Shown: piece after piece, positions 12,307 to 34,879 of the stretch | Numbering within the stretch: position 1 is the first letter of the stretch | Layout of the letters: each line of letters begins with the position of its first letter | Assembly (NCBI GenBank): GCA_002070275.1 | Contig: MWCY01000002.1 | Location: 11,820 to 75,819 of the forward strand | Length of the DNA: 64,000 nucleotides | Source of the DNA: Candidatus Hydrogenedentes bacterium ADurb.Bin170 | Lineage (GTDB): Bacteria > Hydrogenedentota > Hydrogenedentia > Hydrogenedentales > CAITNO01 | Direction: 5' to 3' | Notes under the pieces: model-generated | Databases searched by the model: none | The model's input: only the letters and a program-made list of their open reading frames with translations | Told to the model about the DNA's origin: nothing | Program-made: the position numbers and the translations under genes

Positions 12307-13284
12307 GTGAACGTGCAGAAAGCTGTAATTACCGCCGCCGGTCGTGGAGTCCGGCTGTTTCCCGTAGCAGATACCGTGCAGAAAGGCATGCTGCCGCTGC
12401 AGGACAGAGACGGTCTGGTCAAACCTGTGATTCAGATCATCATCGAGGAAGCGCTGGAAAGCGGCATAGAAGAACTGTGTATTGTCTGTGCTCCAGGGGA
12501 CGAAAGCCGCTATAGGCAACAAATGCAGCAGATCCGCGACAATCTCCTGGAAGGCTACTCAGGGGAGCAGTGGGCGCAGCAGCAGGCGGCAAGGCTGGAA
12601 GTTATCCTGAACAAACTGTCTTTTGCCGTTCAGGAAGAGGCGCTGGGCTACGGTCATGCGGTTTACTGCGCCAAAGACTTTGCAGGGGATGCTCCTTTTC
12701 TGCTGCTGCTCGGCGATCACCTTTATGTCTCTCATCTTGAAGGGAAACGCTGTGCTCAGCAGCTGCTGGCGCTGGCTGCACAGGAACAATGTGCCGTTGC
12801 GGCAGTTAACCCCACGAGAGAACATCTCGTCGGCAATTACGGTACAGTCAGCGGTAAGCGCGTCCCTGCCATGCCCGGCGTGTACACCCTTGAAAAGATC
12901 ATCGAAAAACCCTCAGTCAGCCTGGCGGAATCAGTTCTGCAAACCCCCGGTCTCCGGGCAGGTCATTATCTGTGCTTTTTCGGGATGCATGTACTCACAC
13001 CGGGGATTTTCCCCCTTATTGAAGAAGAAATGGCGCAGTCGAAACGCAGCAACAGCAGCTGCCAGCTGACTCCGGCTCTTCAGGCGCTGGCATTGCGGGA
13101 GAAGTATCTGGCTACAGAGGTTCAGGGAAGTCGCTATGATATCGGCGCCCGCTACGGACTGCTTCTGGCTCAAATGGCGCTGGGACTCGCCGGACAGGAT
13201 CGGGACGTCATGCTCTCCGATGTTGTGTCTCTTCTGGCGGAATGTCGCTGCAACAGCAGCCCTTCGATGGAAAGACAGGTATGA
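12307..13284 (+). CDS. Sugar-1-phosphate nucleotidyltransferase (GalU/UTP-glucose-1-phosphate uridylyltransferase-like)
   Basis: KAVITAAGRGVRLFPVADTVQKGMLPL matches the GalU-type (A)VIPAAGLGTRFLP..K.MLP motif. Probable GTG start at 12307 with GGAGGA SD 7 nt upstream. The longer ATG ORF begins at 12271. Confidence 0.65.
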   Translation: MNVQKAVITAAGRGVRLFPVADTVQKGMLPLQDRDGLVKPVIQIIIEEALESGIEELCIVCAPGDESRYRQQMQQIRDNLLEGYSGEQWAQQQAARLEVILNKLSFAVQEEALGYGHAVYCAKDFAGDAPFLLLLGDHLYVSHLEGKRCAQQLLALAAQEQCAVAAVNPTREHLVGNYGTVSGKRVPAMPGVYTLEKIIEKPSVSLAESVLQTPGLRAGHYLCFFGMHVLTPGIFPLIEEEMAQSKRSNSSCQLTPALQALALREKYLATEVQGSRYDIGARYGLLLAQMALGLAGQDRDVMLSDVVSLLAECRCNSSPSMERQV

Positions 13285-16200
13285 ACGCTTTTATCGAGAC
13301 CATCACCAGCCGTGACGAAGTTCTGCGCAACCGCCCCTTTCGCACCCTGTGCGCCGGCAGAAATTCTGCTGAACTTCTGGCGGCGGCACGGGAACTGGAA
13401 GCCTTCCGGCAGTCTTCAGAAAATCTTTACGAGCGGGTGCGGGCATCTCTTTTTCTCTACGCCCTTCACCGTTTTTACCTGAGTGAATCGGCAGACTTCC
13501 CCGCTTCGGGCACACTCCCGCCTTCCGGTTTCTATGATCTCATGGAGCGACGTTTTGAAGAAGCACTTGCCTGCTTCTGGAAAGAGGTGAATGAGCAGGG
13601 CGCTACAGGAGCACTTTGCAGTGCGCTGGCGGAAAGCTATCACCATCTCTCTTTTGACACGCTGAGCGATCAGGTGCGGCGCAGCGTGCGCTCGAGCCGT
13701 GGCAATCAGTGGATGTTCCGGGTCGGTCACCCTGCAGAACATCCCCTCCGCTGTCGCCCTGAGCTGCAGCGCCGAGCCTCAGGAGAAAGCCTCTACCCTG
13801 TCCTTGTTGAGCGGACACCAGTCCGGCTGGATCTAAGCCACAGCGGATGGTCCGACATTTTCTTTCTCGGCATGGACTACCCTGAAGGGGCACGCGTGCT
13901 CAATATCAGCGTGGATCTGGGCGTATACGGTCGCGACAGCAGCACCCGCCCTCCGGTACAGGCCTATGTCCGGGTCATCACCGAACCGGTTCTTCGCATC
14001 ACCAGTCTTGATCTGGGAACAAGCAAAGACATCCGGGATCTGGGTGATCTCTTCAATTTCGGTAATGACTATCTGAGCCTTTTAAAAGCCGGGATCATCG
14101 CCTCCGGCTTTATCCCGCCTTCTTTTGAAGGCACGGACATACCTCTGGCCGGGATTCTGGGTGAGGTTATCCGCCCCGGCATGGGAATGGAACTTGTCAC
14201 TCAGGTGAACGATATCCCCAAAGGATCCCGCCTCGCTGTTTCCACAAACCTGCTCGCCTGTGTCATTGCGCTGCTCATGCGCGCCACCGGCCAAACACAG
14301 TCCCTCACAGGTTCACTTACAGAAGAGGAACGGCGCCTTGCCGCATCCCGAGCCATTCTGGGCGAATGGCTGGGCGCTTCAGGCGGAGGCTGGCAGGATT
14401 CAGGCGGCATATGGCCGGGCATCAAAGTGATCCGCGGCGCCCTTGCGGGAGAATCCGATCCTGAACACGGTATAAGCAAGGGGCGGCTCCTGCCTGAGCA
14501 TCAGATTCTGGGCGATCAGGATCTGCATCCGGACATTACCGAACGGCTGGCGGCATCGCTCGTGTTAATTCACGGCGGCATGGCGCAGAACGTAGGACCC
14601 ATTCTTGAAATGGTTACCGAAAAATATCTGCTCCGCTCCCAGCCCGAATGGGACGCCCGCCTGCGGATGGACAAGATTTTCAACGGCATCCGCAGTGCCC
14701 TGAAAACAGGAGACATTAAAGCGCTGGGCGCCTGCACCACACAAAACTGGAATGATCCGCTCAAAACCATTATCCCCTGGGTCAGCAATCATTTCACGGA
14801 AAGCATCATCAGCCGCGCACGGGCGGCACTTGGGGACGATTTCTGGGGCTTTCTCATGCTGGGCGGCATGTCCGGCGGCGGTATGTGCATGATGGTGGCG
14901 CCTGAACGGCGGGAAGCCTTCCGTGACATTATTCTTGACATCATGCAGTCAACAAAAGAGGAGCTGGAAGAAGCCCTGCCCTTTGCCATGAATCCTGTCG
15001 TCTATGATTTTACGATCAACAATCAGGGAACACAGGCGGCGCTGCTGACCGGAGAAGAAGCACTGCTTCCCATGTCCTATCACATACTGCTCACCCCGGA
15101 TCTTGCCCGAAACTGCCCGGAGAATCTCCCGTTGCAGCGGCGGATAGAACTGGATTGCGCCATCGCCGCCTGCCCAGAACCGGATAAACGGGATCAATTG
15201 CTTCGAACACTTGTGGGCAGCCTGTTCCGTGTAGGAGATGCGCTGTCACGAAGCGAGAAGAACCAATGGGACGAAGAAGCGGAAGCGATCAAGGCACAGA
15301 ACGGCTTTGACAGCATTCAGCATGAAATGATCCGGGATGATCTGCGGGGGGGCCGCATCGGGCTTTCCCGGAACCGCCTGCCCGCCGATACGCTCATCGA
15401 AGATGTTCAGGATCAGGATATCCTATTTCTTAAAGCCGATGCCCGAAGCAGACAGTCGGGCGAAGAAGCGCTCAGAGCGGGCACCGTTGCTGTGCTGTCC
15501 CTGGCTGCCGGCGTAGGCAGCCGCTGGACAACAGGTGCTGGCGTAATCAAAGCAATCAACCCCTTTATTTTTATGGCAGGCAGGCATCGCAGCTTTCTGG
15601 AACTCCATCTGGCAAAAACACGGGAAAGCATGCAGCGGTACAGCTGCGTAATCCCTCATATAGTGTCCACCAGTTTTCTCACCCATGGGCCTGTCGTAAA
15701 GCATCTGGAGCAACAGAAACGCTATCAGCATCCAGGCCCCCTTTACCTGTCGCCGGGCAGATCCATCGGACAGCGTTTTGTGCCTATGGTGCGGGATCTT
15801 CTTTTTCTCTGGGAAGAAACGACTCAGGAAAGCCTGGATGAACAGAAACAGAAGGTGCGCGATGCCGTCCGGGCAGCACTGATCGACTGGGCGAAAGCCA
15901 AAGGGGAAGGAACGGACTATACGGACAACCTGCCTATCCAGCGGTTTAATCCGCCCGGCCACTGGTACGAGGTCCCCAATCTGCTGCTGAACGGCGTACT
16001 GGCGCAGTTGCTGCAGGATCAGCCTCAGATCAAAACCCTCCTGCTGCACAATATCGACACGCTCGGTGCCGATCTGGATGCAACTGCTCTGGGCATGCAT
16101 CTTCTGTCGGGCAATGCGCTCAGCTTTGAGGTTACACCCCGGCGTATTGCGGATCGGGGCGGCGGTCTTGCGCGGGTAAACGGAAGACTCAGGCTGCTGG

Positions 16201-16616
16201 AAGGGCTGGCACAGCCCCGGGAAGAAGATGAACTCCGGCTGCGCTTCTACAATACGATGACCACCTGGATCGATGTCGATGCGCTATTGCAGCAGTTCGG
16301 GCTGGTGCGCGAAGATTTATGCCGGTCACGGGATAAAGTCGCTCAGGCTGTACGCATGATGGCAAGGCGCATGCCCAGTTATGTCACGATTAAAGATGTG
16401 AAACGACGCTGGGGCCGCGGGCAGGAAGATGTTTACCCGGTTGCTCAGGTGGAAAAACTCTGGAGCGACATGAGCGCACTCCCCGACCTGTCCTGCGGTT
16501 ATATGGTTGTGCCCCGCTTCAGAGGCCAGCAGCTGAAAGATCTGAACCAGCTCGACGCCTGGGCAAATGACGGAAGCAAGGACTGGATCGCCCGCCTTTG
16601 CGGACTTCAGGGCTGA
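13281..16616 (+). CDS. Bifunctional fucokinase-type GHMP sugar kinase / UDPGP-family (UGPase-like) nucleotide-sugar pyrophosphorylase fusion (1112 aa)
   Basis: GGWSD-like fucokinase motif (LDLSHSGWSDIFF). GHMP motif-II-like PKGSRLAVSTNLLACVIAL. GHMP C-terminal-like region (..GGMSGGGMCMMV..). C-terminal domain with the UDPGP blocks (LSLAAGVGSRW..; LLHNIDTLGADLD, cf. NIDNLGA of UGPases). ATG 13281 overlaps the upstream stop (ATGA). Confidence 0.55.
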   Translation: MNAFIETITSRDEVLRNRPFRTLCAGRNSAELLAAARELEAFRQSSENLYERVRASLFLYALHRFYLSESADFPASGTLPPSGFYDLMERRFEEALACFWKEVNEQGATGALCSALAESYHHLSFDTLSDQVRRSVRSSRGNQWMFRVGHPAEHPLRCRPELQRRASGESLYPVLVERTPVRLDLSHSGWSDIFFLGMDYPEGARVLNISVDLGVYGRDSSTRPPVQAYVRVITEPVLRITSLDLGTSKDIRDLGDLFNFGNDYLSLLKAGIIASGFIPPSFEGTDIPLAGILGEVIRPGMGMELVTQVNDIPKGSRLAVSTNLLACVIALLMRATGQTQSLTGSLTEEERRLAASRAILGEWLGASGGGWQDSGGIWPGIKVIRGALAGESDPEHGISKGRLLPEHQILGDQDLHPDITERLAASLVLIHGGMAQNVGPILEMVTEKYLLRSQPEWDARLRMDKIFNGIRSALKTGDIKALGACTTQNWNDPLKTIIPWVSNHFTESIISRARAALGDDFWGFLMLGGMSGGGMCMMVAPERREAFRDIILDIMQSTKEELEEALPFAMNPVVYDFTINNQGTQAALLTGEEALLPMSYHILLTPDLARNCPENLPLQRRIELDCAIAACPEPDKRDQLLRTLVGSLFRVGDALSRSEKNQWDEEAEAIKAQNGFDSIQHEMIRDDLRGGRIGLSRNRLPADTLIEDVQDQDILFLKADARSRQSGEEALRAGTVAVLSLAAGVGSRWTTGAGVIKAINPFIFMAGRHRSFLELHLAKTRESMQRYSCVIPHIVSTSFLTHGPVVKHLEQQKRYQHPGPLYLSPGRSIGQRFVPMVRDLLFLWEETTQESLDEQKQKVRDAVRAALIDWAKAKGEGTDYTDNLPIQRFNPPGHWYEVPNLLLNGVLAQLLQDQPQIKTLLLHNIDTLGADLDATALGMHLLSGNALSFEVTPRRIADRGGGLARVNGRLRLLEGLAQPREEDELRLRFYNTMTTWIDVDALLQQFGLVREDLCRSRDKVAQAVRMMARRMPSYVTIKDVKRRWGRGQEDVYPVAQVEKLWSDMSALPDLSCGYMVVPRFRGQQLKDLNQLDAWANDGSKDWIARLCGLQG

Positions 16617-23800: not shown

Positions 23801-26800
23801 CTATTGCAGGTGCGGCAGCACGACCTGACCTTCAGCCTGTGCCACCAGATCGTGATAGGCACCATAAAAAACGCTGTTCCCGTCTATCCACAGAGTAATA
23901 CGGCGCAGCTCTTCGGGTGAAAGTGCCACACCGTAATGCCCCGCTTCCAGGAGAGCCAGCAGAGGCGAAGCGTGGGCACCTACTTGACCCGGAATATTAT
24001 AGGATGTTTTATTGCGCTTCAGTCCGATCCCATTTCCACCGTGACGTACCCAGACGAAAGGCCGAAGCGACTCGAAGGCCTGAGACCATCCGTAGGCACC
24101 TCCCGCCTCCCTTCCGAATTTCGGCGCCTCTTTTTCCCGGGCATGGCAGTCAGCACAGTGCCTGTCCAGTACAGGCTGCACCAGACGGGAAAATTGGAGC
24201 GGCCAGGAACCGTCCGCTTCCGCTTTCAGTTTATCCGGTGCCCGTCGCAGGGCAAGAGGCAGCCGCTTGGGCACTGCCGGAGACTGTCGGACCGGCTCAT
24301 GGCAGCCGGCACAGGACAGATGTTCGCCCGGATGCAGATAGGTTGCGGAACTCATGGTCTGCACTGCCATACCCCGTTCATCCAGTGCCTGAAAATAGAA
24401 AGGTACCCCCGCCGGTGCCATGAAATGAGCGCTTCCGTCTTCCTCTACAGGCACGGTACCCAGCACGCCCCGCGCCACCGATTCATCACCGGCACCGATA
24501 TTCGGTTTTTCCGGAGCCGGCGTTGATTTCGGAAACATCTGTATGAGGCGGAGCTCTTTAATTCTGGTGTTTTCCGGCCACTCCCGGCGGGTCTCGTATA
24601 TATTCATCACTGAAATCACACCTGTCGGCGGCTCAGCCTGCGCAACTGTTTCATAATGTGTCTGCACGGGAATAATCGGCGGCCTCGGCCGTGCACGGAA
24701 AGGAATGGGAGTGGAACAGCCTATGCTGTCATCCCGGTACAGAATTTCCCGGTTGCCGAAGGAGTCGACAAGATATAAATCATGCTTGCTCTGGTCAGGA
24801 TCATACACAGCGAGATAAAAGTCTTCGCTCAGAGGCCAGGGCGTCCCGTACACCTGCCCGTCACCGCCGCCGCCCTGAGGACTTCGGGGTACCCCCGGCG
24901 CCGACTCCGCTTCCGGAAATTTAGCTTCCGGCGTTACACGTCTGATCTGTCCTGTGGATTGATCATCTTCAAGGTGAAGATCAATAGTAATGATGGAGCC
25001 GAAGAACTGGCCGTGATGCGTGGCGGCAGTTGCAGCGTATTTGTGCGAGCCGGGAATGGCACGAAGAGACATTTCCATCCACGGACGTGATTCCCGGACA
25101 GCCGGGTAATTGCCGTGGGGGCCGCGCGGGTCTCTGCCGTCCGGATAGACAAGCCACAGATGATGGGCAATGTCGCTGTCCCGATCCACGTAATCCCAGC
25201 GGGTATACACGACCATGCCGTTATTATCCACACTGGGCAGCCATTCATGGGTCTCGTGATAGCTGAAGGGCAGAATTTCTTTCAGGGCACTGTCCATCTG
25301 AAAAAGCGTATAGGTGGGGCACACGCGTCCGCAGCGCAGAAATCCGCCTCTCCGCTCAGAAGTAAACACAATGCGGCCGTCGGGAAGCCAGCAGGGATGC
25401 ATGTCATTCCAGGGCCCGTCAGTCAGCTGGGTCAGCCCTGTGCCGTCCGCATTCACACTGAATAAATGATAGGCCCTGCCTGGATCCCAGGGCTCTTTCC
25501 AGTAATTTGCCTGATCTTCTCTGTGGTACTTGTGGCGCTTGTCGCCGCGGCATTCCACATAGGCAAAAAGAATCCGGGTGCCGTCAAAAGAAAGATCCGG
25601 AGATAGGAAGGCACCGCCTCCCGCATCGGCTCCCTCCGTCAGCAGCCCTTCACCGTCATAATAAAGATCCGGTGCCGCCGTGCCACCGTGCAGCTTTTCA
25701 CCTGCCAGCCTTCCCGATTCAACAACGGAATCGGCAAGCAGATCTTTTGTGACAGGAGCATCGGTAAACGCATTTTCCAGAACAAATAGTCCGCCGCCGG
25801 GCCGGGCGGCTATGCCGTAGAACTGATCGCACATATGCTCATAAATAGCACGGTGTCTTTTCAGAAACAGGATGCGATCAAAATTCAGCAGCGGATTGGA
25901 AAAAGCAATCTCCCGGCGCAGTGCACACAGACGGTGAAAACAGAGCCGCTCCTCCTGCAGCCCGACAGCCCCCTGCCCTTCTTCAATCTTCGCAACAAGG
26001 GGCGCCAATTCGGAAAGAGCAGCTTCCATGCCGCTGTAATCTCTGTCCGGATAGCGTGCGGACAAATAGTCAAGAAGTGCCCGGGTGCGCCGCCAGACAA
26101 TGCCTGTCGGAGAGCGGTCCGTGTCATGAATCAGCGAATCAGGACGCAGCGCTTCCCGGGCAAGCCGCTCATTATTCCATTCCGGACGGGCAGCAATCTG
26201 CCGCCTCAGTTCTCTGTATTCGGCATCCCGAACCGCACTGAGCGGAAGCGTCTCTCTCGCACCGGGAAATTCCGCAATGATCACGACATTATCATCAAAC
26301 TGCGGAATATAGATCCGGTTCTCGTGCCACGCCGTCCCGATATCAGCAGGCGATTGAAGCGTATGCAGTGTGCGGACACTCTTCCGGTCTGCTGTAATGA
26401 TACAAATTTTGTTGCCGACAAAATCCGAGACGATAAAGTCACCGGAAGGGGTGACTTCTATGCCGTCCAGGTTGGTGAAATGTTCGGCAAGGCCGAAAGG
26501 CACCGGAGCATTCTGTCCGGCAGGATCCACCTCATAGATTTCATGAAGTGTCCAGGAAACGGCGTACAGTTTTTCCCCGTGAACAGTAACACCATTCACG
26601 CCCTCAATTTCTCCCACAAGGGCATGATTGCCCGCCCCACTGATATCCACCCGCCAGATGTGCCCCTTTTCGACATCAGACACATAAACAGCACCATCGC
26701 CCGCAGCCATGTCGTTCAGCCTGCCCGCCCCTGCCGGTGCATAACTTTTTCTGAAGGATCCGTCGGCGAGAGAATAAGCAACAACACGACGGTTGTCTGC

Positions 26801-27130
26801 TGCATAAAGAACTCCGTTGAGGATTGCCATGCCTTTGGGCTGATGCAACGGAAATGCCTCAGTGCTTTCCACCCATTTCAACTGATCAAGTTTTCCGTCA
26901 GGGCTGATTCGGGAAATGAAGCCGGCCCCCGTATCTGTCCAGTATCCTTCAGGTGCCGACGCAATATTCGATACATAGGCGAAGCCTGTTTCGGGATCTG
27001 CAACAACACATTCCGGTGTGGAAAATCCGTGAATAGCGTGCAAAGGCTGCAGTTCCTGTGCCGGAAGCCCGGCGGACAACAGAAGGAAACAAAGGGAAAA
27101 GGACAAAGACAGGAACGCTGAAGAACGCAT
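23801..27130 (-). CDS. Large secreted multi-domain protein: N-terminal NHL/SMP-30-like beta-propeller, central PD40-like repeats, C-terminal putative di-heme c-type cytochrome region
   Basis: Signal peptide MRSSAFLSLSFSLCFLLLSAGLPAQE (start 27130). PD40-like blocks (WLPDGRIVFTSERRG..; VYPDGRDPRG). Two CxxCH motifs near the C-terminus (LSCAGCHEP; DRHCADCHAREKE). Confidence 0.5.
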   Translation of the reverse strand: MRSSAFLSLSFSLCFLLLSAGLPAQELQPLHAIHGFSTPECVVADPETGFAYVSNIASAPEGYWTDTGAGFISRISPDGKLDQLKWVESTEAFPLHQPKGMAILNGVLYAADNRRVVAYSLADGSFRKSYAPAGAGRLNDMAAGDGAVYVSDVEKGHIWRVDISGAGNHALVGEIEGVNGVTVHGEKLYAVSWTLHEIYEVDPAGQNAPVPFGLAEHFTNLDGIEVTPSGDFIVSDFVGNKICIITADRKSVRTLHTLQSPADIGTAWHENRIYIPQFDDNVVIIAEFPGARETLPLSAVRDAEYRELRRQIAARPEWNNERLAREALRPDSLIHDTDRSPTGIVWRRTRALLDYLSARYPDRDYSGMEAALSELAPLVAKIEEGQGAVGLQEERLCFHRLCALRREIAFSNPLLNFDRILFLKRHRAIYEHMCDQFYGIAARPGGGLFVLENAFTDAPVTKDLLADSVVESGRLAGEKLHGGTAAPDLYYDGEGLLTEGADAGGGAFLSPDLSFDGTRILFAYVECRGDKRHKYHREDQANYWKEPWDPGRAYHLFSVNADGTGLTQLTDGPWNDMHPCWLPDGRIVFTSERRGGFLRCGRVCPTYTLFQMDSALKEILPFSYHETHEWLPSVDNNGMVVYTRWDYVDRDSDIAHHLWLVYPDGRDPRGPHGNYPAVRESRPWMEMSLRAIPGSHKYAATAATHHGQFFGSIITIDLHLEDDQSTGQIRRVTPEAKFPEAESAPGVPRSPQGGGGDGQVYGTPWPLSEDFYLAVYDPDQSKHDLYLVDSFGNREILYRDDSIGCSTPIPFRARPRPPIIPVQTHYETVAQAEPPTGVISVMNIYETRREWPENTRIKELRLIQMFPKSTPAPEKPNIGAGDESVARGVLGTVPVEEDGSAHFMAPAGVPFYFQALDERGMAVQTMSSATYLHPGEHLSCAGCHEPVRQSPAVPKRLPLALRRAPDKLKAEADGSWPLQFSRLVQPVLDRHCADCHAREKEAPKFGREAGGAYGWSQAFESLRPFVWVRHGGNGIGLKRNKTSYNIPGQVGAHASPLLALLEAGHYGVALSPEELRRITLWIDGNSVFYGAYHDLVAQAEGQVVLPHLQ

Positions 27131-27280
27131 GGCCGACTCTCCTGAACTTGAATATTTCCGGATCTGAAAAATGAAACGATCCGGTATTTTGGTGCTCATA
27201 TCACTGCTGTGGTATTGTGTAGCTTCTTCCTTTTTTTACGCTGCCATTTTAACAGGAACCTCACGCTGAAAGGAAAAAGC

Positions 27281-27717: not shown

Positions 27718-29061
27718 ATGGCAAAGCATCCCGAATCGGATAAAGCACAAAAAGAACTGATGCAGACAACCGCCGGTGACTGGGAACGGGAGCGATGCTC
27801 ACGCCATTGGAATCTTGCGGAAGGGATGGGCGTCATGTGCTTCATCCTTTTCGCCTTATGGGGTGTTGCCTATCCTTTCGGCGTGATGGCAGGCAGCGCC
27901 ACAGCAAAAATACTTTCAGAAGTGATGCTGGGGCTGGGTGCCGCGTTTATCTTGCTAGCGGCTCCCTGGCTCCATAAGGATACAGCCTCTTCCTGGGGGC
28001 TGGGAAGTCCGGGAGCATTACGCCGCCTTCTGTCTGAGAGCAGCCCTGTAAAACGGGCACTTTTTGTGCTGCTGATACTGCTGCTTTTCATCGGGCTCAA
28101 CTACATCAATTACCAGCAATGGCCGCGGGTCGTAAAATTTTTCAATCTGCATAAAACTGCCATGGCAGGCTGGAACACCTCCTTTCCCGGAATCATCGGA
28201 CTGTTCCTTTTCGGCGGGCTGCTCTCTTCTGTCATCGTCATCGTGTGCATCCGTTATGACAATTTCCTTTCCGCTTTCAGAACCGCCATGAAAATTGCCC
28301 TGCCTCTCTTTGCCCTCATTGTGCTGGGCGCGCTGGTACAGCGGGGGCGACATGCCTTTGACCATTTCACCTGGAATGCGTTTTTTACCGGCGTTTTCGG
28401 CTATGTTTTCTGGGGTTTTGTACAGCAGCTTCTCTTTTCCGCCTATCTGGGCACCCGATTGAGAAAAGCCTTTGCGCCGACAAAAAACGAAGGTTCCGCA
28501 ACTGCATCCGGGACAAAGATCGTGGCGGGAGCATTGATTGCCTCGCTGAGTTTCAGCCTGCTTTTATATATCGTGATTACGAACTCAAATGGTACTGTCC
28601 TGCCGTGGCAGGTAATTCCCGGGCTCACTCTTTTTCTTTTTCCGCTGTCCACCCTTTATCTCCGGTTTTACTTTAAAGACAAAAAACGGATGCTGGTTGC
28701 GACACTCACCGGATCCTGTTTCGGCATGATTCACATTAATTCATACGGTCTGGTTGCGGTTACTTTTCTTCTGGGCATTTTTCTTAGCTATGTATTCATG
28801 GAAGAACGCAACCGGAATCTTGTGGCACTGGGTTTCATCCATGGACTGCTGGGCTCTTCTTTCAGTCAGTTTTTTTCCAAAGGCCGAGCCGGGGCACTGA
28901 ATGTGGATTACGGCGTTGGTCCCTGGAATGTGGACAATCCTGGCTGGGAAACACTGATCTTCCCTGCCCTTTGCCTGCTTTTCTACGGAGGAATCATTGT
29001 GTGGTACTTCCGGTCAGCCTCTTTTCATGAAACAGAAACACCCCGGAATCTGTTATCGTAA
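27718..29061 (+). CDS. Polytopic membrane protein, degenerate CPBP (CAAX protease/Abi)-like
   Basis: Approximately 10 TM helices. CPBP-like motif 1 with Glu replaced (GFVQQLLFSAYLG vs EELLFRG). Motif-2-like FGMIH. HGLLG at the motif-3 position. Confidence 0.35.
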   Translation: MAKHPESDKAQKELMQTTAGDWERERCSRHWNLAEGMGVMCFILFALWGVAYPFGVMAGSATAKILSEVMLGLGAAFILLAAPWLHKDTASSWGLGSPGALRRLLSESSPVKRALFVLLILLLFIGLNYINYQQWPRVVKFFNLHKTAMAGWNTSFPGIIGLFLFGGLLSSVIVIVCIRYDNFLSAFRTAMKIALPLFALIVLGALVQRGRHAFDHFTWNAFFTGVFGYVFWGFVQQLLFSAYLGTRLRKAFAPTKNEGSATASGTKIVAGALIASLSFSLLLYIVITNSNGTVLPWQVIPGLTLFLFPLSTLYLRFYFKDKKRMLVATLTGSCFGMIHINSYGLVAVTFLLGIFLSYVFMEERNRNLVALGFIHGLLGSSFSQFFSKGRAGALNVDYGVGPWNVDNPGWETLIFPALCLLFYGGIIVWYFRSASFHETETPRNLLS

Positions 29062-29218
29062 AAAGCCGCCAATTGGCAAGTTTTTTTCTTCCTGTGTTTT
29101 CAGAATTCTGAAGCACTTGACGTGTCGTCCTGTTTGCAAACAATCTCCGGTGCGGATACAATGACTCCGGAATTTTTAGCGCCCGCCGCACACCGGAATC
29201 TACTTTTTGAGAGTGTTT

Positions 29219-32200
29219 ATGAATAAAAAGAACCTTGCAATCGCTGTGAAATTGTGTGTTGTCGCCGCCCTGTTCCTGCTTATTTTTCAGCCGGAGCTTT
29301 TCGGACTGAAAGGACTCTTCGGAGACGTTGCGCCACTGGATGTCTGGAACGCCCTGAAAGAGGCCAGCAGTACGGGTCCCGCTACTTTTCTTTTTTTTAT
29401 GAGCTGTGCAGTGATCGTAAAACTGGCAGGCATCTTCTCAGGCATTATTCGATGGCGGCTGCTGCTGGCAGGACAGGGACTCAAAATCCCGTTCACCTAT
29501 CTGACCTATCAGTGGTTCATGGGGCGGGCGATCGGGCTGTTTCTTCCCGGCACGCTCGGGCTCGACGGCTTCCGGCTGATTGAATCATCCCGATACACCC
29601 GGGAAGTAGTCAAATGCACGACAGTGATCGCTGTTGAAAAACTGACGGGCATCATTGCGCTGGCGCTCCTGGTCTTTCTGACTTTTCCCCTTGGCTTCAA
29701 ATATTTGAACATCAATGTGGCAATGCTTGCGATCATTATGCTCTGCCTTCTCGGCGGTGTCATTTGCAGCCTTCTGCTGCTGCTCAATCCCCGGGTCATT
29801 CAGGTGATCGCAGCGGTGATGCCTGTGCCAAACGTTGCCAGAGGACTGATCAATAAGCTGGGCAGGGCGGCAACAGCATACAGCAACTCCAGAAGAACCC
29901 TGCTCACAGCACTCTTTTTCGGCGTACTGGTGCATCTGGGCTCCTGCTCCAAATATTTTTTCACATTCATGGCAATCCGTGCCGCCCATGTGTCCCCGGC
30001 AGATATCTTTTTTGTGAGCCCTCTTATGATCACCGCATCTGTGCTTGCCTTCACTATTTCAGGGCTGGGAGTGCGTGAAATGGCATTCGGTCTTGTGCTT
30101 GGCGGCAGCGCCGGGCATGCCGTCGCCATTCTGGGCGGTCATCTGGGGTTGTGGGCGGGTGAAATTCTTCCCTTCATTCTCAGCGTACCGCTGCTGCTTT
30201 TCAGCGGGCGACCCAGCAGAGATAAGTTGGAGGAAGACCGCGCCTATGTGGAGCAGAACCTTGCCGACCGCCAGCAGGCACTGCAGCCTCTTCTGAGCGA
30301 AGAAGAAAAAACGAAATACAGAAAACGACTTCTGGAAATGCTTTTCTGCGGCACGGCGGCGGGACTGCTGGCAGGCGCCGTCATTGCGCTTCTGGAAGGC
30401 GCCTGGATTCTTTTTCATCTGCAGGGACTGCAGGAGTGGTATTTTCTCGGATGGGGCACTGCCGCCTACAGCCTGCTCTTTGCCGGGCTGGGCTGCGGAA
30501 TTGCCGGTGGACTCATGTTCATCTGCCTTCTTTTTGACCGTTTCATGCCCTGGCCTGTCACAACAGCACTAATCTATACAGGGACAGCGGCACTTGGCGG
30601 TCTGGTAATCGGTATGTTCCGCTATCAGCGGGATATTCTTGCGGGGCATGCAATGACACCTCGCGATCTTATCATGGTTGCCGCTTTTGTTCTGGGAACG
30701 GCACTGATTCTGGGAATTCTTGCGTTTCTGAAGTCGGAATTCTGCCGCCGTTTTCTGAGTCTGCAGGTGCCCGGGTTCATGGCTGTATGTTTTCTTTCCT
30801 GGCTGCTGCTGATCACCTGCGCTTTCGCTGCCGGAGCATTTGCGGCACCTCAAAAGGAAAGTGCCCCGATGCTGACCGGAACCCCCGCAAAGGGACCGAA
30901 TATCATCCTTTGTGCCGCCGATGCGATGCGCGCTGATTGCCTGCCTTTTTACAACCCGTCAATAACCACGGAAACGCCCAATCTCACAGCGCTGACGAAG
31001 GATGCCATCCTTTTTAAACGCGCTTATGCACAGGCGCCCTGGACCAAGCCGTCCTTTGCGACCATGTTTACAGGCCTGTATCCCGGCGCTCATGGTGCCG
31101 CCAGCAAAACAGCGTCCCTCTCTGCCGATGCACCTGTTGTGGCAGGTCTTCTGCAGGCGGGCGGCTATTTCACCCGGGGCTTCTCCAACAATCCGAACAC
31201 CACCGCTCTCTTCGGCTTTGACCGCGGCTTTTCCCAGTTTACAGACCTCAAACCTGACCCTCTTTTTGGTGCACCTCAGTCCGCCATGCATCTGTCTCTT
31301 TACGGGTTGATGCGCAAAGTTTTTCTTACTGCTGAAGGCAAACTGCGGGGGGGCAGACTGCGCATCACCGACTTTTATCAGCCCGCCGAAGTCGTTACTG
31401 ACACTGCTCTTGGCTGGATAGACAGCCGGAAAGAAGAAGGAGACCGCCCCTTCTATTTATATCTGCATTACATGGATACCCACGACCCGTTCATGGATCA
31501 TGCCGATCCGGGGAAAGGCTATGCCCGTGCACGTATGGAACACCCGGACCCCGACAGATATCTGGAACCCATGCGCCAGGCCTATCTGTCGGAAATCGAA
31601 TATATGGATAAACACCTCGGACGCTTCTTCGACGGTCTGAAAGTGCGGAATCTCTACGACAACACGCTTATCATCTTTGTTTCCGATCACGGCGAGGAGT
31701 TTTTTGATCATCAGGGCTGGTGGCATGGACAGACCCTGTATGAAGAACTGCTGCATGTTCCCCTGATCATGAAATTCCCCGGAAATACTCAGGGCGGTAC
31801 TGTTACTGATGATCTGGCACGGCTTGTGGATCTTGCGCCTACTATCCTGCAGACGGCCGGGCTTCCTCTCTGTCCCGATATGTCCGGACTACCGCTCACC
31901 GATAAGACCGGTACCCCCGCCAACAGCAGTATCCGGTATAGTTATGCGGAAAATGATTTTGAAGGAAACAGACTTCAGGCACTGCGTACCGGAGAACGGG
32001 CAGTCATTCAGGCAAATGAAAACAACACGCGCGGGCTTGCTCCTGTGGAATTTTATAATATGGTTCAGGATCCGCTGCAGCAGCATAATCTGGCAGAACG
32101 GTCTGATGCGGCAGAAGAAGTGAATAGCCTGCTCGAAGTGATCGTCCAGTTCATGAAGGCTATAGCCGACAAGGCACCGCTGCCTTCAGGCGAAACAGCC

Positions 32201-32248
32201 ATTGACCCCCAATTGCAGCAGCAGCTCGAAGCACTCGGTTACATGTAA
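29219..32248 (+). CDS. Fusion of lysyl-PG-synthase-type TM (flippase-like, UPF0104) domain with C-terminal sulfatase-family / alkaline-phosphatase-superfamily phosphotransferase-like domain (Thr at nucleophile position)
   Basis: N-terminal approximately 330 aa polytopic region resembling the MprF/LPG_synthase_TM flippase-like domain. Further TM helices follow. C-terminal approximately 450 aa sulfatase fold (PNIILCAADAMRADCLPFYN..TPNLTALTKDAILFKRAYAQAPWTKPSFATMFTGLYPGAHG..FVSDHGEEF..). Thr occupies the Cys(FGly) position of CxPxR, as in LtaS/EptA/OpgB-type transferases. ATG 29219; the ORF TTG is at 29207. Confidence 0.6.
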   Translation: MNKKNLAIAVKLCVVAALFLLIFQPELFGLKGLFGDVAPLDVWNALKEASSTGPATFLFFMSCAVIVKLAGIFSGIIRWRLLLAGQGLKIPFTYLTYQWFMGRAIGLFLPGTLGLDGFRLIESSRYTREVVKCTTVIAVEKLTGIIALALLVFLTFPLGFKYLNINVAMLAIIMLCLLGGVICSLLLLLNPRVIQVIAAVMPVPNVARGLINKLGRAATAYSNSRRTLLTALFFGVLVHLGSCSKYFFTFMAIRAAHVSPADIFFVSPLMITASVLAFTISGLGVREMAFGLVLGGSAGHAVAILGGHLGLWAGEILPFILSVPLLLFSGRPSRDKLEEDRAYVEQNLADRQQALQPLLSEEEKTKYRKRLLEMLFCGTAAGLLAGAVIALLEGAWILFHLQGLQEWYFLGWGTAAYSLLFAGLGCGIAGGLMFICLLFDRFMPWPVTTALIYTGTAALGGLVIGMFRYQRDILAGHAMTPRDLIMVAAFVLGTALILGILAFLKSEFCRRFLSLQVPGFMAVCFLSWLLLITCAFAAGAFAAPQKESAPMLTGTPAKGPNIILCAADAMRADCLPFYNPSITTETPNLTALTKDAILFKRAYAQAPWTKPSFATMFTGLYPGAHGAASKTASLSADAPVVAGLLQAGGYFTRGFSNNPNTTALFGFDRGFSQFTDLKPDPLFGAPQSAMHLSLYGLMRKVFLTAEGKLRGGRLRITDFYQPAEVVTDTALGWIDSRKEEGDRPFYLYLHYMDTHDPFMDHADPGKGYARARMEHPDPDRYLEPMRQAYLSEIEYMDKHLGRFFDGLKVRNLYDNTLIIFVSDHGEEFFDHQGWWHGQTLYEELLHVPLIMKFPGNTQGGTVTDDLARLVDLAPTILQTAGLPLCPDMSGLPLTDKTGTPANSSIRYSYAENDFEGNRLQALRTGERAVIQANENNTRGLAPVEFYNMVQDPLQQHNLAERSDAAEEVNSLLEVIVQFMKAIADKAPLPSGETAIDPQLQQQLEALGYM

Positions 32249-32280: not shown

Positions 32281-33033
32281 ATGGTGTTTTTTCTTCTTCT
32301 GTCTCTTCTTGGCGCCGATGAAGCCCTTTCTCCGGCTGAGAATGAGCCTGCCGAAAAAATCTATACCCGCGAAGAATGGCGCCCTTCCATAGAAGCCACT
32401 CAGGAACAGCTGGAACTGCTGGATCTTTTTGCTGCAGCCACCAAATTCGGCGGCATGAAAATCAAAGTGCCGAAAGAGCTGCAGTCGCTGCCCATGCGCA
32501 TGATAGAAGGCGCCGACGAACTGAAAGACAAAGGGATTGAACTGCGGGTGACGGAATTGGAATTCCGTAATCTGAAAATTGTCCGGGATGCAACGCCCCA
32601 GTGGCAGGAAAACCGCCCCCGTATGCCTGTCCGTCTGGAATTCGACAAACTCGGTGTTTCGGCAGATGCAAAAACTAAACTGGGTGTTATCCCTGTCGGC
32701 GCGATTTTTGAACAGGGCACTATGCCTGCCGACTTTCTGCCGATCATTCAAAAAGGATTCAATCTGGAAGTACTTCCCGAAAAAAGGCTGCAAGAGACCA
32801 ATCTTGATAAGGTAAAGCTGAAAGTCGGCGGCGCTTTAACCACCGGCATAGCCAATCATTTTTTCAGCAAAAAAGTTGCCCGCATGATTCTTGAATACGG
32901 CGTGGGACAGACGCTGCAGATGGGCCAGGAAAGCCTTATGGGCGGCGGTATTGCGGGCAAACTCATTGACGGAGGCAAAGACACTCCTGCCAGCCGTGCG
33001 GCAGGTTCACTCATTGATCAGCTGCTGAATTGA
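32281..33033 (+). CDS. Hypothetical secreted protein
   Basis: Hydrophobic N-terminus (MVFFLLLSLLGA) and coding-like composition. No recognisable domain. Confidence 0.4.
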   Translation: MVFFLLLSLLGADEALSPAENEPAEKIYTREEWRPSIEATQEQLELLDLFAAATKFGGMKIKVPKELQSLPMRMIEGADELKDKGIELRVTELEFRNLKIVRDATPQWQENRPRMPVRLEFDKLGVSADAKTKLGVIPVGAIFEQGTMPADFLPIIQKGFNLEVLPEKRLQETNLDKVKLKVGGALTTGIANHFFSKKVARMILEYGVGQTLQMGQESLMGGGIAGKLIDGGKDTPASRAAGSLIDQLLN

Positions 33034-33527: not shown

Positions 33528-34511
33528 TCAGCCCCGGGTACGATCCATCAACGTGCCGAGAAACAGCGCCATGCCTTTATTCGCCGGTGCTTTGGCGGAC
33601 GGATAACGGAGAAACTCCACATGACCATCCATATACAGCACATTGGCACCGCCGGGCACATGGTTAAAATATTTTATATTGCTTGAAATCGCATCAAACA
33701 TGACCCATATATCGCTCTGCGCGCGGGCACTTGCTGCCGGGTTGTTGATATCCGTAATGAGAAAACGCTCTATACCTTCCCTCAAACGGTTAATCGTATT
33801 ACTGGAACCGTTGCCCATAGGAATCAGACCCAGACTGTTGGTCTGCACGGGACTGACTTCCTTGTCTTTATCCACCACCTGAAAACTGGCAACTACCGGA
33901 TCTTCTCCCGCACTGCGCCGGGCAATGGCATCACCGGCAGTCGTAAGCACCAGCGTCACAAACTGGTAGGGCCCCGATGCGTTCGGATCATCGAGAATAA
34001 AGCGGTTGGACAACTGGGGAATAATGGAAAAAACACCGCCCAGCGAAATGAAGGCTTCGTCCGGCTGATCATCGCCGCATTTATCCAGAAGAAACCCCAC
34101 ATACCCGTAACTGGTGTCAATAAGGTCGGGATGAAGATGCAGGATAAAATCGCCGGTATCAGGATCTTTCAGATCAGCCAGGCTGCTGGATGCATCGGAG
34201 GGGCACCAGGCAATGGAAGGATCCGTAAGATACTCGGGATAGATTGATTTCACCATGGGACCGATGGCAATATCGGCATTGTGATGGCTCCGGGCTTCAA
34301 ACTGCATGGGAGGGTATTTTTCGCCAGGAGATTCATTGGCGTACATCTTATATACCAGGCCCCATTGTTTCAGATTGTTCTGACAGCTCGAGCGACGGGC
34401 AGCCTCGCGTGCCCGTGCCAGTGCCGGAAGCAGAATAGCGGCAAGAATACCGATGATGGCTATCACAACCAGCAATTCAATCAGGGTAAAGCCTTGCTTG
34501 TTCTTTTTCAT
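33528..34511 (-). CDS. Prepilin-type N-terminal cleavage/methylation domain protein, DUF1559 family
   Basis: Class III signal [31 protein letters not shown] (G-1/F+1/E+5). C-terminal ..[15 protein letters not shown] typical of DUF1559. AGGAGA SD before ATG 34511. Confidence 0.8.
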
Positions 34512-34879
34512 AACTGTCTCCTTGAGAGCGTGAAACCTGTTCCCGAATCTGTACACGCTTTTCACTGCATGTTTTTAAAAATAAATTAACCTTAAATATA
34601 AAACTTTCATTTTTATCAGTCTATTAATAAAGACTTGAACATTTCGGAACGGGTTTCAGGTGCAGCACAGCCGCCCTTGCGTCCTGTAAATACGCTGCAG
34701 GTGCGCCATTTTCCACTTTTCTCCACCCGACTCATCAAAACAGCCTCAGAAGACTGCTTTCTCCTTCCACAAGACCATCTATCTATAGTGGGTGTATTGT
34801 TTCTATCCACAACATACAGTGGCTTTCCCTTTTAGTCAAAAATGATCTTGCAGAAACGGTTTTTTAAGCAAAAAAGGTA

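What the first reader, a model, noticed from the sequence alone, without database searches (positions are those of the whole stretch)
29219..32248. Flippase-like (MprF/LPG_synthase_TM-type) membrane domain fused to a Thr-nucleophile sulfatase-family domain
In the sulfatase signature the FGly Cys and the Arg are replaced (APWTKPSFATMFTGLYPGAHG vs C-x-P-S-R-x-x-x-L-T-G-R-Y-P). Thr sits at the nucleophile position. That is the hallmark of LtaS/EptA/OpgB-type phospho-headgroup transferases rather than true sulfatases. This domain is fused behind an N-terminal polytopic domain resembling the lipid-flipping domain of MprF. In a Gram-negative-type PVC cell this predicts an enzyme that flips or presents a phospholipid and transfers its phospho-headgroup (phosphoglycerol or phosphoethanolamine) to a periplasmic acceptor. 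It is a candidate new envelope-modification enzyme in a bacterium otherwise rich in genuine sulfatases.
Basis: partly seen in the sequence, partly recalled or inferred. Interest (0 to 1): 0.65.

Follow-up and report, generated by a model that had tools for sequence, protein, structure and literature searches.

The report
Flippase fused to threonine-type sulfatase-like enzyme
This gene encodes an uncharacterised 1009-residue membrane protein that joins an MprF-type lipid flippase, a five-helix anchor and an outward-facing sulfatase-fold domain whose catalytic residue is threonine, so it most likely modifies or transfers a lipid head group at the cell surface rather than removing sulfate.

Summary
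ORF 29219-32248 (+) encodes 1009 aa with PF03706 (MprF flippase/PplT, aa 11-297) and PF00884 sulfatase (aa 560-881). Thr609 sits exactly at the formylglycine Cys/Ser position and Phe613 at the Arg position.

New findings:
- A five-helix module (aa 361-542) lies between the two domains. That gives 13 TM helices and an extracytoplasmic catalytic domain.
- By sequence and fold the catalytic domain is an S1-sulfatase/phosphonate-monoester-hydrolase type, not LtaS/EptA lineage. It is LtaS/EptA-like only in architecture and nucleophile.
- Thr609, D568, D823, H824, H755, H831 and H836 are near-invariant in at least 140 representatives. About 630-aa unfused forms (5 TM + catalytic domain) occur in many phyla.
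- The organism is probably Hydrogenedentota (FCB group), not PVC.
- In a sister clade the gene is often divergently paired with a cytoplasmic PAPS sulfotransferase plus APS kinase. This pairing is absent from the window and from its own clade (0 of 5 loci).

Best reading (confidence about 0.5): a lipid head-group transferase working through a covalent Thr intermediate, with its own scramblase. Which group is transferred (a phospho-alcohol or a sulfated group) is unresolved. The family is uncharacterised and generically annotated, and I rate it a new variant of a known kind.

The parts
29219..32248 (+). Complete gene, 1009 aa plus stop: PplT flippase domain, linker, 5-TM module, Thr-type sulfatase-fold domain
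   Evidence: ORF list; at least 120 full-length homologue clusters at 44-76% identity; AF2 model mean pLDDT 85.6, pTM 0.76
29219..30208 (+). aa 1-330: MprF-type flippase/scramblase domain (PF03706, 'PplT'), 8 TM helices, N-terminus and C-terminus predicted in the cytoplasm
   Evidence: Pfam 67.7 bits against a cut-off of 33.4; Foldseek finds only MprF structures significant, E 3.5e-5 to 8e-4, probability 1.0; helices; invariant R78, W79, Q86, D116, R119, K141, E287, H308
30209..30298 (+). aa 331-360: charged cytoplasmic linker with an amphipathic helix (aa 334-352)
   Evidence: Loop 328-373 carries on average 7.9 K+R and 7.4 D+E across the family; lower pLDDT and a single helix
30299..30844 (+). 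aa 361-542: five-TM-helix module that takes the chain from the cytoplasm to the outside. It is homologous to the N-terminal anchor of the unfused ~630-aa relatives
   Evidence: Five helices 361-400, 406-439, 445-473, 481-511, 517-542 with pLDDT mostly above 90; an HMM of this module hits 65 unfused representatives; invariant G382, G386, E393, W412, Y417, R471, D472
30881..32245 (+). aa 555-1009: extracytoplasmic catalytic domain with S1-sulfatase/PMH fold and C-terminal subdomain
   Evidence: PF00884 E 1.7e-46, SGSH_C E 8.6e-14; Foldseek top 50 are all S1 sulfatases, PMH or choline sulfatase, target-normalised TM-score 0.50-0.72; phmmer against PDB
31034..31096 (+). aa 606-626: degenerate sulfatase signature APW-T609-KPS-F613-ATMFTGLYPGAHG. 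Thr replaces the FGly Cys/Ser and Phe replaces Arg. The Thr609 codon ACC is at 31043-31045
   Evidence: Residue-level alignments to 7p24, 5g2v, 4upk and 9s03; W608, T609, K610 invariant; coordinates
30920..30937 (+). aa 568-573, D568-A-M-R571-A-D573: first metal-ligand motif. It has a single Asp (PMH/NPP-like 'DxxRAD') where S1 sulfatases have 'DD'
   Evidence: Alignment to PMH 4upk 'IDQLRADCL'; D568 kept in 143 of 143, R571 in 142, D573 in 139 aligned representatives; position 569 is Thr or Ala, never Asp
31685..31726 (+). aa 823-836, D823-H824-G-E-E-F-x-x-H831-x-x-x-x-H836: second metal-ligand pair plus two invariant His. H836 lies 12 residues after H824, the same spacing as EptA H453/H465 and MCR-1 H251/H263
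   Evidence: Conservation 148-149 of 149; EptA and MCR-1 residue lists in PMC7576196; spacing. Equivalence is inferred from spacing, not from superposition
32281..33033 (+). 250-aa ORF 32 bp downstream, with a signal-peptide-like N-terminus and no known domain. It is a possible secreted partner, conserved only with the window's own clade
   Evidence: 47-54% identical ORFs directly downstream in L006 and L007; no Pfam hit even at E<=10; not found near more distant family members

Best explanation
The protein is a three-module inner-membrane enzyme. The N-terminal 8-TM MprF-type (PplT) domain moves a membrane lipid between leaflets. A 5-TM module anchors a metal-dependent alkaline-phosphatase-superfamily domain on the outer face. 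That domain attacks the anionic ester head group of the lipid with Thr609. It forms a covalent Thr-linked intermediate and passes the group to an envelope acceptor, a ping-pong transfer like that of LtaS, EptA or OpgB. The fused scramblase would supply donor lipid to the outer leaflet, return the de-headed lipid product, or both.

Shown: the domain identities, the Thr at the nucleophile position, and near-invariance of a complete catalytic set.
Predicted: the topology.
Inferred: the lipid substrate, transfer rather than hydrolysis, and the identity of the group. My default is a phospho-alcohol such as phosphoglycerol or phosphoethanolamine.
For: - Architecture: PF03706 plus PF00884, and MprF structures are the only significant fold matches for aa 1-550.
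- Topology: 13 TM helices and a positive-inside bias place the catalytic domain outside. The PF03706 domain of MprF is reported to have eight TM segments (10.1101/2022.03.11.483950).
- Nucleophile: Thr609 sits at the FGly position and is kept in 144 of 145 representatives. D568, D823, H824, H755, H831 and H836 are kept in at least 143 of 149. This matches the Thr/acid/Asp/His/His/His sets listed for EptA, MCR-1 and LtaS (PMC7576196), including the His+12 spacing.
- Loss of sulfatase features: the FGly-motif Arg, the second Asp and the KWH motif are all missing.
- The core module (5 TM + catalytic domain) exists on its own as ~630-aa proteins in many phyla. That is the same layout as LtaS, EptA and YejM (5 TM + periplasmic domain, PMC7576196).
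- MprF of P. aeruginosa is a promiscuous, energy-independent scramblase (PMC11980842), so a fused PplT domain can plausibly serve an outer-leaflet enzyme.
- Envelope genes recur nearby: BamA, GT9 heptosyltransferase, WaaA-type and lipid A acyltransferase genes, and glycan and dcw genes in the window.
Against: - There is no biochemical evidence for any family member, and no literature on this fusion.
- The catalytic domain is not homologous at family level to LtaS or EptA, so the mechanistic analogy rests on nucleophile, metal ligands and topology only.
- Gene context is not conserved across the family and names no donor or acceptor.
- The strongest recurrent neighbours in the sister clade are a PAPS sulfotransferase and APS kinase, which points towards sulfate chemistry rather than phospho-head groups.
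- I could not inspect model coordinates, so the geometry of the metal site and its position relative to the membrane are unverified.
- Thr nucleophiles also serve pure hydrolases such as NPP.
Confidence: 0.5

Rival explanations
1. Sulfated-lipid pathway. The enzyme acts on a sulfated lipid, or a lipid-linked sulfated head group, made in the cytoplasm by a PAPS-dependent sulfotransferase. The PplT domain flips this lipid. The outward-facing Thr domain then transfers the sulfuryl group or the sulfated head group to a periplasmic or outer-membrane acceptor, or removes it.
For: - An orthologous PF13469 sulfotransferase (48-62% identity, PAPS motifs intact) lies within 3.4 kb of the gene in L001, L002, L012 and L037, in varying arrangements.
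- It is divergently adjacent in L168, L169 and the P0078 locus, with APS kinase beside it.
- Starting from the sulfotransferase, 14 of 80 loci carry the fused gene by HMM scan, or 18 by BLAST clustering, which also draws in unfused relatives.
- Among 41 loci with at least 3.2 kb of upstream flank, 9 have the fusion and 11 an MMPL/RND lipid exporter at the same position.
- Nine contig lengths are shared between the two protein lists.
- The fold descends from sulfatases.
- Clades A and B differ at only six positions, all conservative substitutions and none a catalytic residue, so they probably share their chemistry.
Against: - The window (64 kb) has no such sulfotransferase, and 0 of 5 clade A loci have one.
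- Most sulfotransferase loci lack the fusion, and MMPL-type loci have no Thr enzyme nearby.
- The residues that bind sulfate in S1 sulfatases are lost.
- To my knowledge, no Ser/Thr-based sulfuryl transferase is known in this superfamily.
- The pairing could simply reflect co-regulation of two independent envelope modifications.
Confidence: 0.2
2. Lipid phosphodiesterase. The Thr domain only hydrolyses head groups of outer-leaflet lipids (NPP- or phospholipase C/D-like), for example for membrane remodelling or phosphate scavenging, and there is no acceptor.
For: Thr-nucleophile members of the superfamily include hydrolases. PF01663 (type I phosphodiesterase/NPP) scores 49.5 bits against a cut-off of 23. 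The 'DxxRAD' motif resembles PMH and NPP. No acceptor-related gene is conserved nearby.
Against: A 5-TM anchor plus a fused flippase is the layout of known transferases, not of soluble NPPs. The PF01663 hit covers only short stretches and is much weaker than PF00884. There is no phosphate-starvation context in the window.
Confidence: 0.15
3. Non-catalytic sensor or regulator. Like the periplasmic domain of YejM/PbgA/LapC, the domain binds a lipid or LPS and regulates envelope synthesis without transferring anything.
For: The layout is the same (5 TM + periplasmic AP-superfamily domain). There is a weak NCBIfam hit to LapC/YejM (E 1e-4).
Against: A full catalytic constellation (Thr, two Asp, four His, plus Lys/Arg610) is conserved in at least 95% of 149 diverse representatives, which is typical of active enzymes. 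The YejM model score is 20.7 bits against a cut-off of 825.
Confidence: 0.05
4. Genuine membrane-bound sulfatase that hydrolyses sulfate esters, as the database names ('arylsulfatase A-like enzyme') suggest.
For: The best sequence and fold matches are S1 sulfatases. Sources name it arylsulfatase-like.
Against: The (C/S)-x-P-x-R motif needed for formylglycine formation is absent: the sequence is T-K-P-S-F, with Thr invariant. The second Ca-ligand Asp and the Lys/His sulfate-binding motif are missing. By established sulfatase chemistry, a hydroxyl nucleophile without the aldehyde hydrate cannot release the sulfo-enzyme intermediate efficiently.
Confidence: 0.03

Closest known systems
MprF (multiple peptide resistance factor; PF03706 flippase/'PplT' domain + aminoacyl-PG synthase)
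   Same: Both have an N-terminal 8-TM PF03706 domain. MprF cryo-EM structures are the only significant fold matches. In both, this domain is followed by further TM helices and fused to a lipid-modifying enzyme.
   Different: The partner enzyme here is an outward-facing alkaline-phosphatase-superfamily domain reached through 5 TM helices. In MprF it is a cytoplasmic tRNA-dependent synthase behind 6 further TM helices. The order of events would therefore be flip then modify, not modify then flip.
LtaS / EptA (MCR-1) / OpgB-type phospho-head-group transferases
   Same: Both have 5 TM helices followed by an extracytoplasmic metal-dependent AP-superfamily domain with a Thr nucleophile, an Asp-His pair and a His 12 residues later. 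These enzymes use membrane phospholipids as donors.
   Different: There is no family-level homology. NCBIfam LtaS scores 32 bits (cut-off 970) and EptA 13 bits (cut-off 561). PF08019 gives no hit at E<=0.1. The first metal ligand is Asp, not Glu. The domain carries the sulfatase C-terminal subdomain (SGSH_C), and its fold neighbours are S1 sulfatases. It also has an extra fused flippase.
S1 formylglycine-dependent sulfatases and phosphonate monoester hydrolases (e.g. 7p24, 5g2v, 4upk, 2vqr)
   Same: These are the closest in sequence and fold over the whole catalytic domain. The signature remnant P-S-x-x-x-x-x-T-G-x-Y-P-x-x-H-G is kept. 'DxxRAD' and 'DHG' match the PMH type.
   Different: The nucleophile is Thr, not FGly. 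The motif Arg is replaced by Phe, Val, Thr or Ile. The second Asp and the KWH motif are absent. The protein is membrane-anchored through 13 TM helices.
YejM/PbgA/LapC
   Same: 5 TM + periplasmic AP-superfamily domain with Thr near a metal site (PMC7576196).
   Different: The similarity is very weak (20.7 bits). The catalytic set here is fully conserved, and YejM has no flippase domain.
Other PplT-domain fusions catalogued by Hauser et al. (bioRxiv 10.1101/2022.03.11.483950)
   Same: The paper establishes that PF03706 is fused to many enzyme types (148 architectures) and proposes that it translocates lipids for them.
   Different: A sulfatase or alkaline-phosphatase-superfamily partner is not mentioned in the text. 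The listed partners are mainly cytoplasmic enzymes.

Membership tests
PF03706 / PplT (MprF flippase domain family) | Match to the Pfam model above the gathering score | tested here: met
   67.7 bits against 33.4, aa 11-297 covering profile positions 4-276 of 302
PF03706 / PplT (MprF flippase domain family) | Eight-TM fold similar to the MprF flippase domain | tested here: met
   Model pLDDT 87.7. The six MprF entries are the only PDB hits with E<1e-3, probability 1.0, query-normalised TM-score 0.37-0.40. Eight hydrophobic helices
PF03706 / PplT (MprF flippase domain family) | Lipid translocation activity | not testable with these tools
   Needs a reconstituted scramblase assay
S1 formylglycine-dependent sulfatases | Sulfatase fold and a PF00884 match | tested here: met
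   E 1.7e-46; Foldseek E 1e-19 to 1e-16 against S1 structures
S1 formylglycine-dependent sulfatases | (C/S)-x-P-x-R motif providing the formylglycine nucleophile | tested here: not met
   The sequence is T609-K-P-S-F613. Thr is invariant in the family
S1 formylglycine-dependent sulfatases | Asp-Asp ... Asp-Asn/His calcium site and Lys/His sulfate-binding residues | tested here: not met
   D568 is followed by Ala (Thr or Ala across the family). The KWH motif is absent. The position of the conserved Lys after DHG is His836/Gly837. This comes from sequence alignment only
LtaS / EptA / OpgB phospho-head-group transferases | Five N-terminal TM helices followed by an extracytoplasmic catalytic domain | tested here: met
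   Helices 361-542 precede the domain. The topology is predicted, not measured
LtaS / EptA / OpgB phospho-head-group transferases | Thr nucleophile with acid/Asp/His metal ligands | tested here: met
   T609, D568, D823 and H824 are near-invariant. Asp stands where LtaS and EptA have Glu
LtaS / EptA / OpgB phospho-head-group transferases | Match to the family models (NCBIfam LtaS and EptA/MCR; Pfam PF08019 N-terminal domain) | tested here: not met
   LtaS 32.2 bits against 970; EptA 13 against 561; MCR-12 18.6 against 1200. PF08019 not reported at E<=0.1. No such structure is among the top 50 fold hits or the best 60 sequence hits
LtaS / EptA / OpgB phospho-head-group transferases | Transfer of a phospho-alcohol from a phospholipid to an acceptor | not testable with these tools
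   Needs enzymology or lipidomics
YejM/PbgA/LapC | Match to NCBIfam NF038282 | tested here: not met
   20.7 bits against a cut-off of 825
Type I phosphodiesterase / NPP (PF01663) | Pfam match above the gathering score | tested here: inconclusive
   49.5 bits against 23, but in two short stretches, overlapping the much stronger PF00884 match. The bimetal site was not tested

The most novel reading that the evidence does not exclude
The family is the missing piece of a route for sulfating the cell envelope outside the cytoplasm. A cytoplasmic PAPS sulfotransferase, fed by the adjacent APS kinase, loads sulfate onto a membrane lipid. The fused PplT domain flips that lipid. A sulfatase fold re-tooled with a Thr nucleophile then transfers the sulfuryl group, or the sulfated head group, to an envelope acceptor. 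This would be a lipid-linked sulfate donor system, analogous to undecaprenyl-phosphate-Ara4N, phosphatidylethanolamine or phosphatidylglycerol as donors for periplasmic modifications.
Probability: 0.12. Interest if true: 0.9.

Novelty: new variant of a known kind. Interest (0 to 1): 0.6.

Why it matters
Periplasmic envelope modifications that change surface charge (phosphoethanolamine on lipid A, phosphoglycerol on glucans, lipoteichoic acid) are all made by enzymes with 5 TM helices and a Thr-type alkaline-phosphatase-superfamily domain. How the donor lipid reaches the outer leaflet, and how the by-product returns, is poorly understood.

This family would matter in three ways:
- It would be a second, independent origin of such an enzyme, from the sulfatase branch of the superfamily.
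- It would be the first case in which the enzyme is physically fused to an MprF-type scramblase, which makes the coupling of flipping and head-group transfer directly testable.
- It warns that many genes annotated 'arylsulfatase A-like' in Hydrogenedentota, Myxococcota, Nitrospirales and other phyla cannot be sulfatases. That affects sulfatase counts used to infer polysaccharide degradation.

The link to a sulfotransferase and APS kinase in a sister clade hints at an unexplored sulfated-lipid pathway in diderm bacteria.

Tried and rejected
- Conserved gene neighbourhood as a clue to function. Clustering ORFs around 21 fused loci found no universal neighbour. The clade-specific neighbours were FeoAB and an amidase, which is synteny rather than function.
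- Rosetta-stone test. Only 1 of the roughly 60 unfused loci scanned (L037) has a separately encoded PplT-like gene nearby. My HMM was built from the fused family and may miss divergent YbhN-type genes.
- The haloarchaeal homologue (L062, the only cultured organism) is a 430-aa protein without the membrane modules, so I did not pursue it.
- A sulfotransferase in the window: none in 64 kb. In clade A, 0 of 5 loci have one.
- Clade-specific active-site differences between clade A and the sulfotransferase-linked clade B: none.
- Literature on the fusion or on a Thr-type S1-like enzyme: nothing found.
- Exact look-up of the window protein in the contig index: not on record.
- Model coordinates are not exposed, so I could not measure metal-site geometry or the distance from the active site to the membrane.
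- The promoter and terminator scan gave only weak sigma-70-like sites at 29117-29162 and no convincing terminator before the downstream ORF.
- The genuine-sulfatase and pseudoenzyme readings were rejected on motif and conservation grounds.


Full report
**Observation.** The window carries a 1009-codon ORF at 29219-32248 on the + strand. An in-frame TTG at 29207 is possible, but homologues begin 'MxKK', so ATG 29219 is the likely start. Pfam finds PF03706 (LPG_synthase_TM) at aa 11-297 with 67.7 bits against a gathering score of 33.4. It finds PF00884 (Sulfatase) at aa 560-881 with E 1.7e-46, plus the sulfatase C-terminal subdomain SGSH_C at aa 832-976. The quoted motif is aa 606-626, nt 31034-31096. 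In pairwise HMMER alignments to solved sulfatases, Thr609 lines up with the Ser of SxPSR (7p24, 5g2v, 9s03) and with the Cys of CxPSR in a phosphonate monoester hydrolase (4upk). Phe613 lines up with the Arg.

**It is a conserved family, not an accident.** A search of 5.8 billion proteins returned at least 120 clusters of full-length (~1000 aa) proteins with the same two Pfam domains, at 44-76% identity. Where a source names them they are called 'sulfatase-like hydrolase/transferase' or 'arylsulfatase A-like enzyme/YbhN', and most come from Candidatus Hydrogenedentes/Hydrogenedentota MAGs. In a 75-sequence alignment the following are invariant: W608-T609-K610, D568, R571, D573, H625, N657-N658, Y720-Q721-P722, H750, H755-D756-P757, D823-H824-G-E-E-F828, H831 and W835-H836-G837.

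**Anatomy: three modules, not two.** Hydropathy and two AlphaFold models describe the layout. The full-length model has pLDDT 85.6 and pTM 0.76, and the aa 1-550 model has pLDDT 87.7. They show:
- eight hydrophobic helices in aa 1-330;
- a charged linker with an amphipathic helix (aa 331-360);
- five further long helices (361-400, 406-439, 445-473, 481-511, 517-542);
- the globular domain from about aa 555.

Averaged over 75 homologues, the loops assigned to the inside hold 27.6 K+R and those assigned to the outside hold 8.7. The 46-residue linker alone has 7.9. The PF03706 domain of MprF is described as having eight TM segments (bioRxiv 10.1101/2022.03.11.483950). So 8+5 helices with the N-terminus inside put the catalytic domain outside the cytoplasm.

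**The N-terminal domain.** Foldseek of the aa 1-550 model against the PDB gives six hits with E<1e-3, all at probability 1.0, and all are MprF cryo-EM structures (7duw, 7f47, 6lvf, 9j8s, 9j8q, 9goe). The next hits (LeuT and others) have E>0.05. Sequence and fold therefore agree that this is an MprF-type flippase domain. P. aeruginosa MprF has been shown to be a promiscuous, energy-independent lipid scramblase (PMC11980842).

**The catalytic domain: sulfatase lineage, not LtaS/EptA lineage.**
- NCBIfam ranks arylsulfatase (E 2e-42), choline-sulfatase (1e-37) and PehA (3.5e-32) far above LtaS (4e-8), YejM (1e-4), MCR-12 (5e-4) and EptA (0.02). All are far below their cut-offs.
- All of the top 50 Foldseek PDB matches of the full model are S1 sulfatases, phosphonate monoester hydrolases or choline sulfatases, with E 1e-19 to 1e-16 and target-normalised TM-score 0.50-0.72.
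- The N-terminal half that carries the nucleophile, searched alone, also finds only these.

The signature keeps P-S, T-G, Y-P and H-G of the sulfatase motif but has lost the Cys and the Arg. The 'DD' metal motif is 'D-A' here (D-T or D-A across the family) inside a PMH-like 'DxxRAD'. The KWH motif is missing. The place of the conserved Lys after DHG is taken by His836/Gly837. The (C/S)xPxR motif is what the FGly-generating systems recognise, which is established knowledge, and Thr is invariant here. I therefore reject a genuine sulfatase.

What remains is Thr609, D568, D823, H824, H755, H831, H836 and Lys/Arg610. This is the same kind of set listed for EptA (T280, E240, H383, H453, H465), MCR-1 (T70, E31, H180, D250, H251, H263) and LtaS (T300, E255, D475, H476) in PMC7576196. 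The His 12 residues after the Asp-His pair also matches. That equivalence is inferred from spacing. I could not superpose structures.

**The wider family.** An exhaustive HMMER search with the catalytic domain against 1.84 billion representatives gave, among the best 149 hits (E<1e-71), a mixture of two forms:
- ~1000-aa fused proteins: 48 have the PplT domain, judged by an HMM I built;
- ~630-aa proteins in which the catalytic domain starts near residue 190: 65 of them match my HMM of the five-helix module.

Thr is present in 144 of 145 aligned sequences. D568, H755, D823, H824, H831 and H836 are present in 143-149. The evolutionary unit is therefore '5 TM + Thr-type sulfatase-fold domain', and the PplT fusion is one branch of it.

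In species-representative genomes, the fused form occurs in Hydrogenedentota, Nitrospirales, Fermentibacteria, Myxococcota/Polyangiales and 'Deltaproteobacteria' MAGs. Unfused relatives occur in Acidobacteriota, Planctomycetota, Zixibacteria, Chloroflexota and others, sometimes as tandem arrays of 2-5 paralogues. Unfused paralogues sit next to the fused gene in L001 and L002.

The taxon names point to Hydrogenedentota for the window. NCBI places that phylum in the FCB group, not PVC.

**Gene context.** In the window the gene is preceded by a Dabb-domain gene and a 447-aa membrane protein without known domains. It is followed after 32 bp by a 250-aa ORF with a signal-peptide-like start. That ORF is conserved directly downstream in the two closest loci with context (L006 and L007, 47-54% identity) but not further afield. 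Further out lie glycan genes (a UDPGP-like giant, a GT-C/PMT_2 protein, a Wzx-like flippase, a GHMP kinase) and the dcw cluster. Across 21 fused loci no neighbour is universal. Envelope genes do recur: BamA, GT9, WaaA-type and lipid A acyltransferase.

**An unexpected link to sulfation.**
- An orthologous PF13469 sulfotransferase (48-62% identity, PAPS-binding motifs intact, no TM segment) lies within 3.4 kb of the gene in L001, L002, L012 (Nitrospirales) and next to an unfused homologue in L037 (Myxococcota). Positions and orientations differ between these loci.
- Starting instead from the sulfotransferase, 80 metagenomic loci were fetched. In 14 the fused gene is nearby by HMM scan (18 by BLAST clustering, which also draws in unfused relatives), in 11 of the 14 immediately upstream and divergent.
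- Among the 41 loci with at least 3.2 kb of upstream flank, 9 have the fusion, 11 have an MMPL/RND-type lipid exporter at that position and 21 have neither. APS kinase lies just downstream of the sulfotransferase in about 15 of the 80 loci.
- Nine contig lengths are shared between the lists of fused proteins and sulfotransferases. All three that I checked show APS kinase, the sulfotransferase, and the fused gene transcribed divergently from it.
- Where a source names an organism, the sulfotransferase orthologues are mostly Hydrogenedentota.

A neighbour-joining tree splits the fused family into two clades. Clade A contains the window's protein and P0001-P0037. Clade B holds all the sulfotransferase-linked members, scattered throughout it. 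Clade A shows no sulfotransferase within 8-10 kb in any of 5 loci (the window). The clades differ at only six positions, all conservative substitutions and none a catalytic residue, so they probably share their chemistry. The window's UDPGP-like protein is 69% identical to one lying 1.3 kb from a clade B gene, while the two fused proteins are only 46% identical. That suggests clades A and B are paralogues within related genomes.

**Interpretation.** I commit, at about 0.5, to a lipid head-group transferase that works like LtaS, EptA or OpgB. The PplT domain equilibrates a lipid between leaflets. The outward-facing metal site activates Thr609 to attack the anionic ester of the head group. The covalent intermediate is then resolved by an envelope acceptor. 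The identity of the group is not determined: a phospho-alcohol is the default by analogy. The sulfotransferase/APS kinase link makes a sulfated lipid or a sulfuryl group a serious alternative (about 0.2). Pure hydrolysis (0.15), a YejM-like non-catalytic role (0.05) and true sulfatase activity (0.03) are less likely, for the reasons given under each rival.

**Comparison and novelty.** It works like LtaS/EptA but fails their family-model tests. It is built like an S1 sulfatase but fails the FGly motif test. Its N-terminus is a bona fide PF03706 domain. The survey of PplT fusions reports 148 architectures but does not mention a sulfatase or alkaline-phosphatase-superfamily partner. I found no paper on this family. 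I therefore rate it a new variant of a known kind: uncharacterised, generically and in part misleadingly annotated, and conserved across several phyla.

Noticed in passing
window 32281-33033 (+): A 250-aa ORF with a signal-peptide-like N-terminus and no Pfam hit even at E<=10. It lies 32 bp downstream of the fused gene and is conserved in the same position in L006 and L007 (47-54% identity). It is a possible secreted partner specific to the window's clade.
   Followed up: partly
window 27718-29061 (+): A 447-aa polytopic membrane protein 157 bp upstream with no Pfam or NCBIfam hit. Motifs such as 'FGMIH' and 'GFIHGLLGS' recall CPBP/CAAX-protease-like proteins, but this is from memory and untested. 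It is not conserved next to other family members.
   Followed up: partly
L001, L002, L012, L037, L168, L169 and L088-L167: An orthologous cytoplasmic PF13469 sulfotransferase, usually with APS kinase downstream, is divergently paired either with the PplT fusion or with an MMPL/RND (Patched-SSD) lipid exporter. This looks like a sulfated-lipid gene module in Hydrogenedentota and other diderm phyla.
   Followed up: yes
window 13242-16616 (+); L169 6508-9840: A 1124-aa protein with a C-terminal UDPGP domain is 69% identical to a protein lying 1.3 kb downstream of a sulfotransferase-linked clade B fused gene. In the window it sits beside a GT-C (PMT_2) protein, a Wzx-like flippase and a GHMP kinase, which suggests a conserved glycan pathway.
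   Followed up: partly
L061, L064, L068, L079: Unfused Thr-type sulfatase-like genes occur as tandem arrays of 2-5 paralogues in several phyla.
   Followed up: no
window 23801-27199 (-): A 1132-aa secreted-looking protein with NHL/PD40 beta-propeller repeats, a hydrazine-synthase-alpha middle domain (PF18582) and CxxCH motifs near the C-terminus.
   Followed up: no
window 33528-34565 (-) and 34918 onward (+): A prepilin N-methylation + DUF1559 protein, a family typical of Planctomycetes-like genomes and a likely source of the 'PVC' guess. It is followed by the dcw cluster (mraZ, mraW, ftsI, murE and onward).
   Followed up: no
L006 6643-7896: In the closest relative with context, the gene directly upstream of the fused gene encodes an FGE-sulfatase (PF03781) domain protein, although the fused protein has no Cys or Ser that could be converted to formylglycine.
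   Followed up: no
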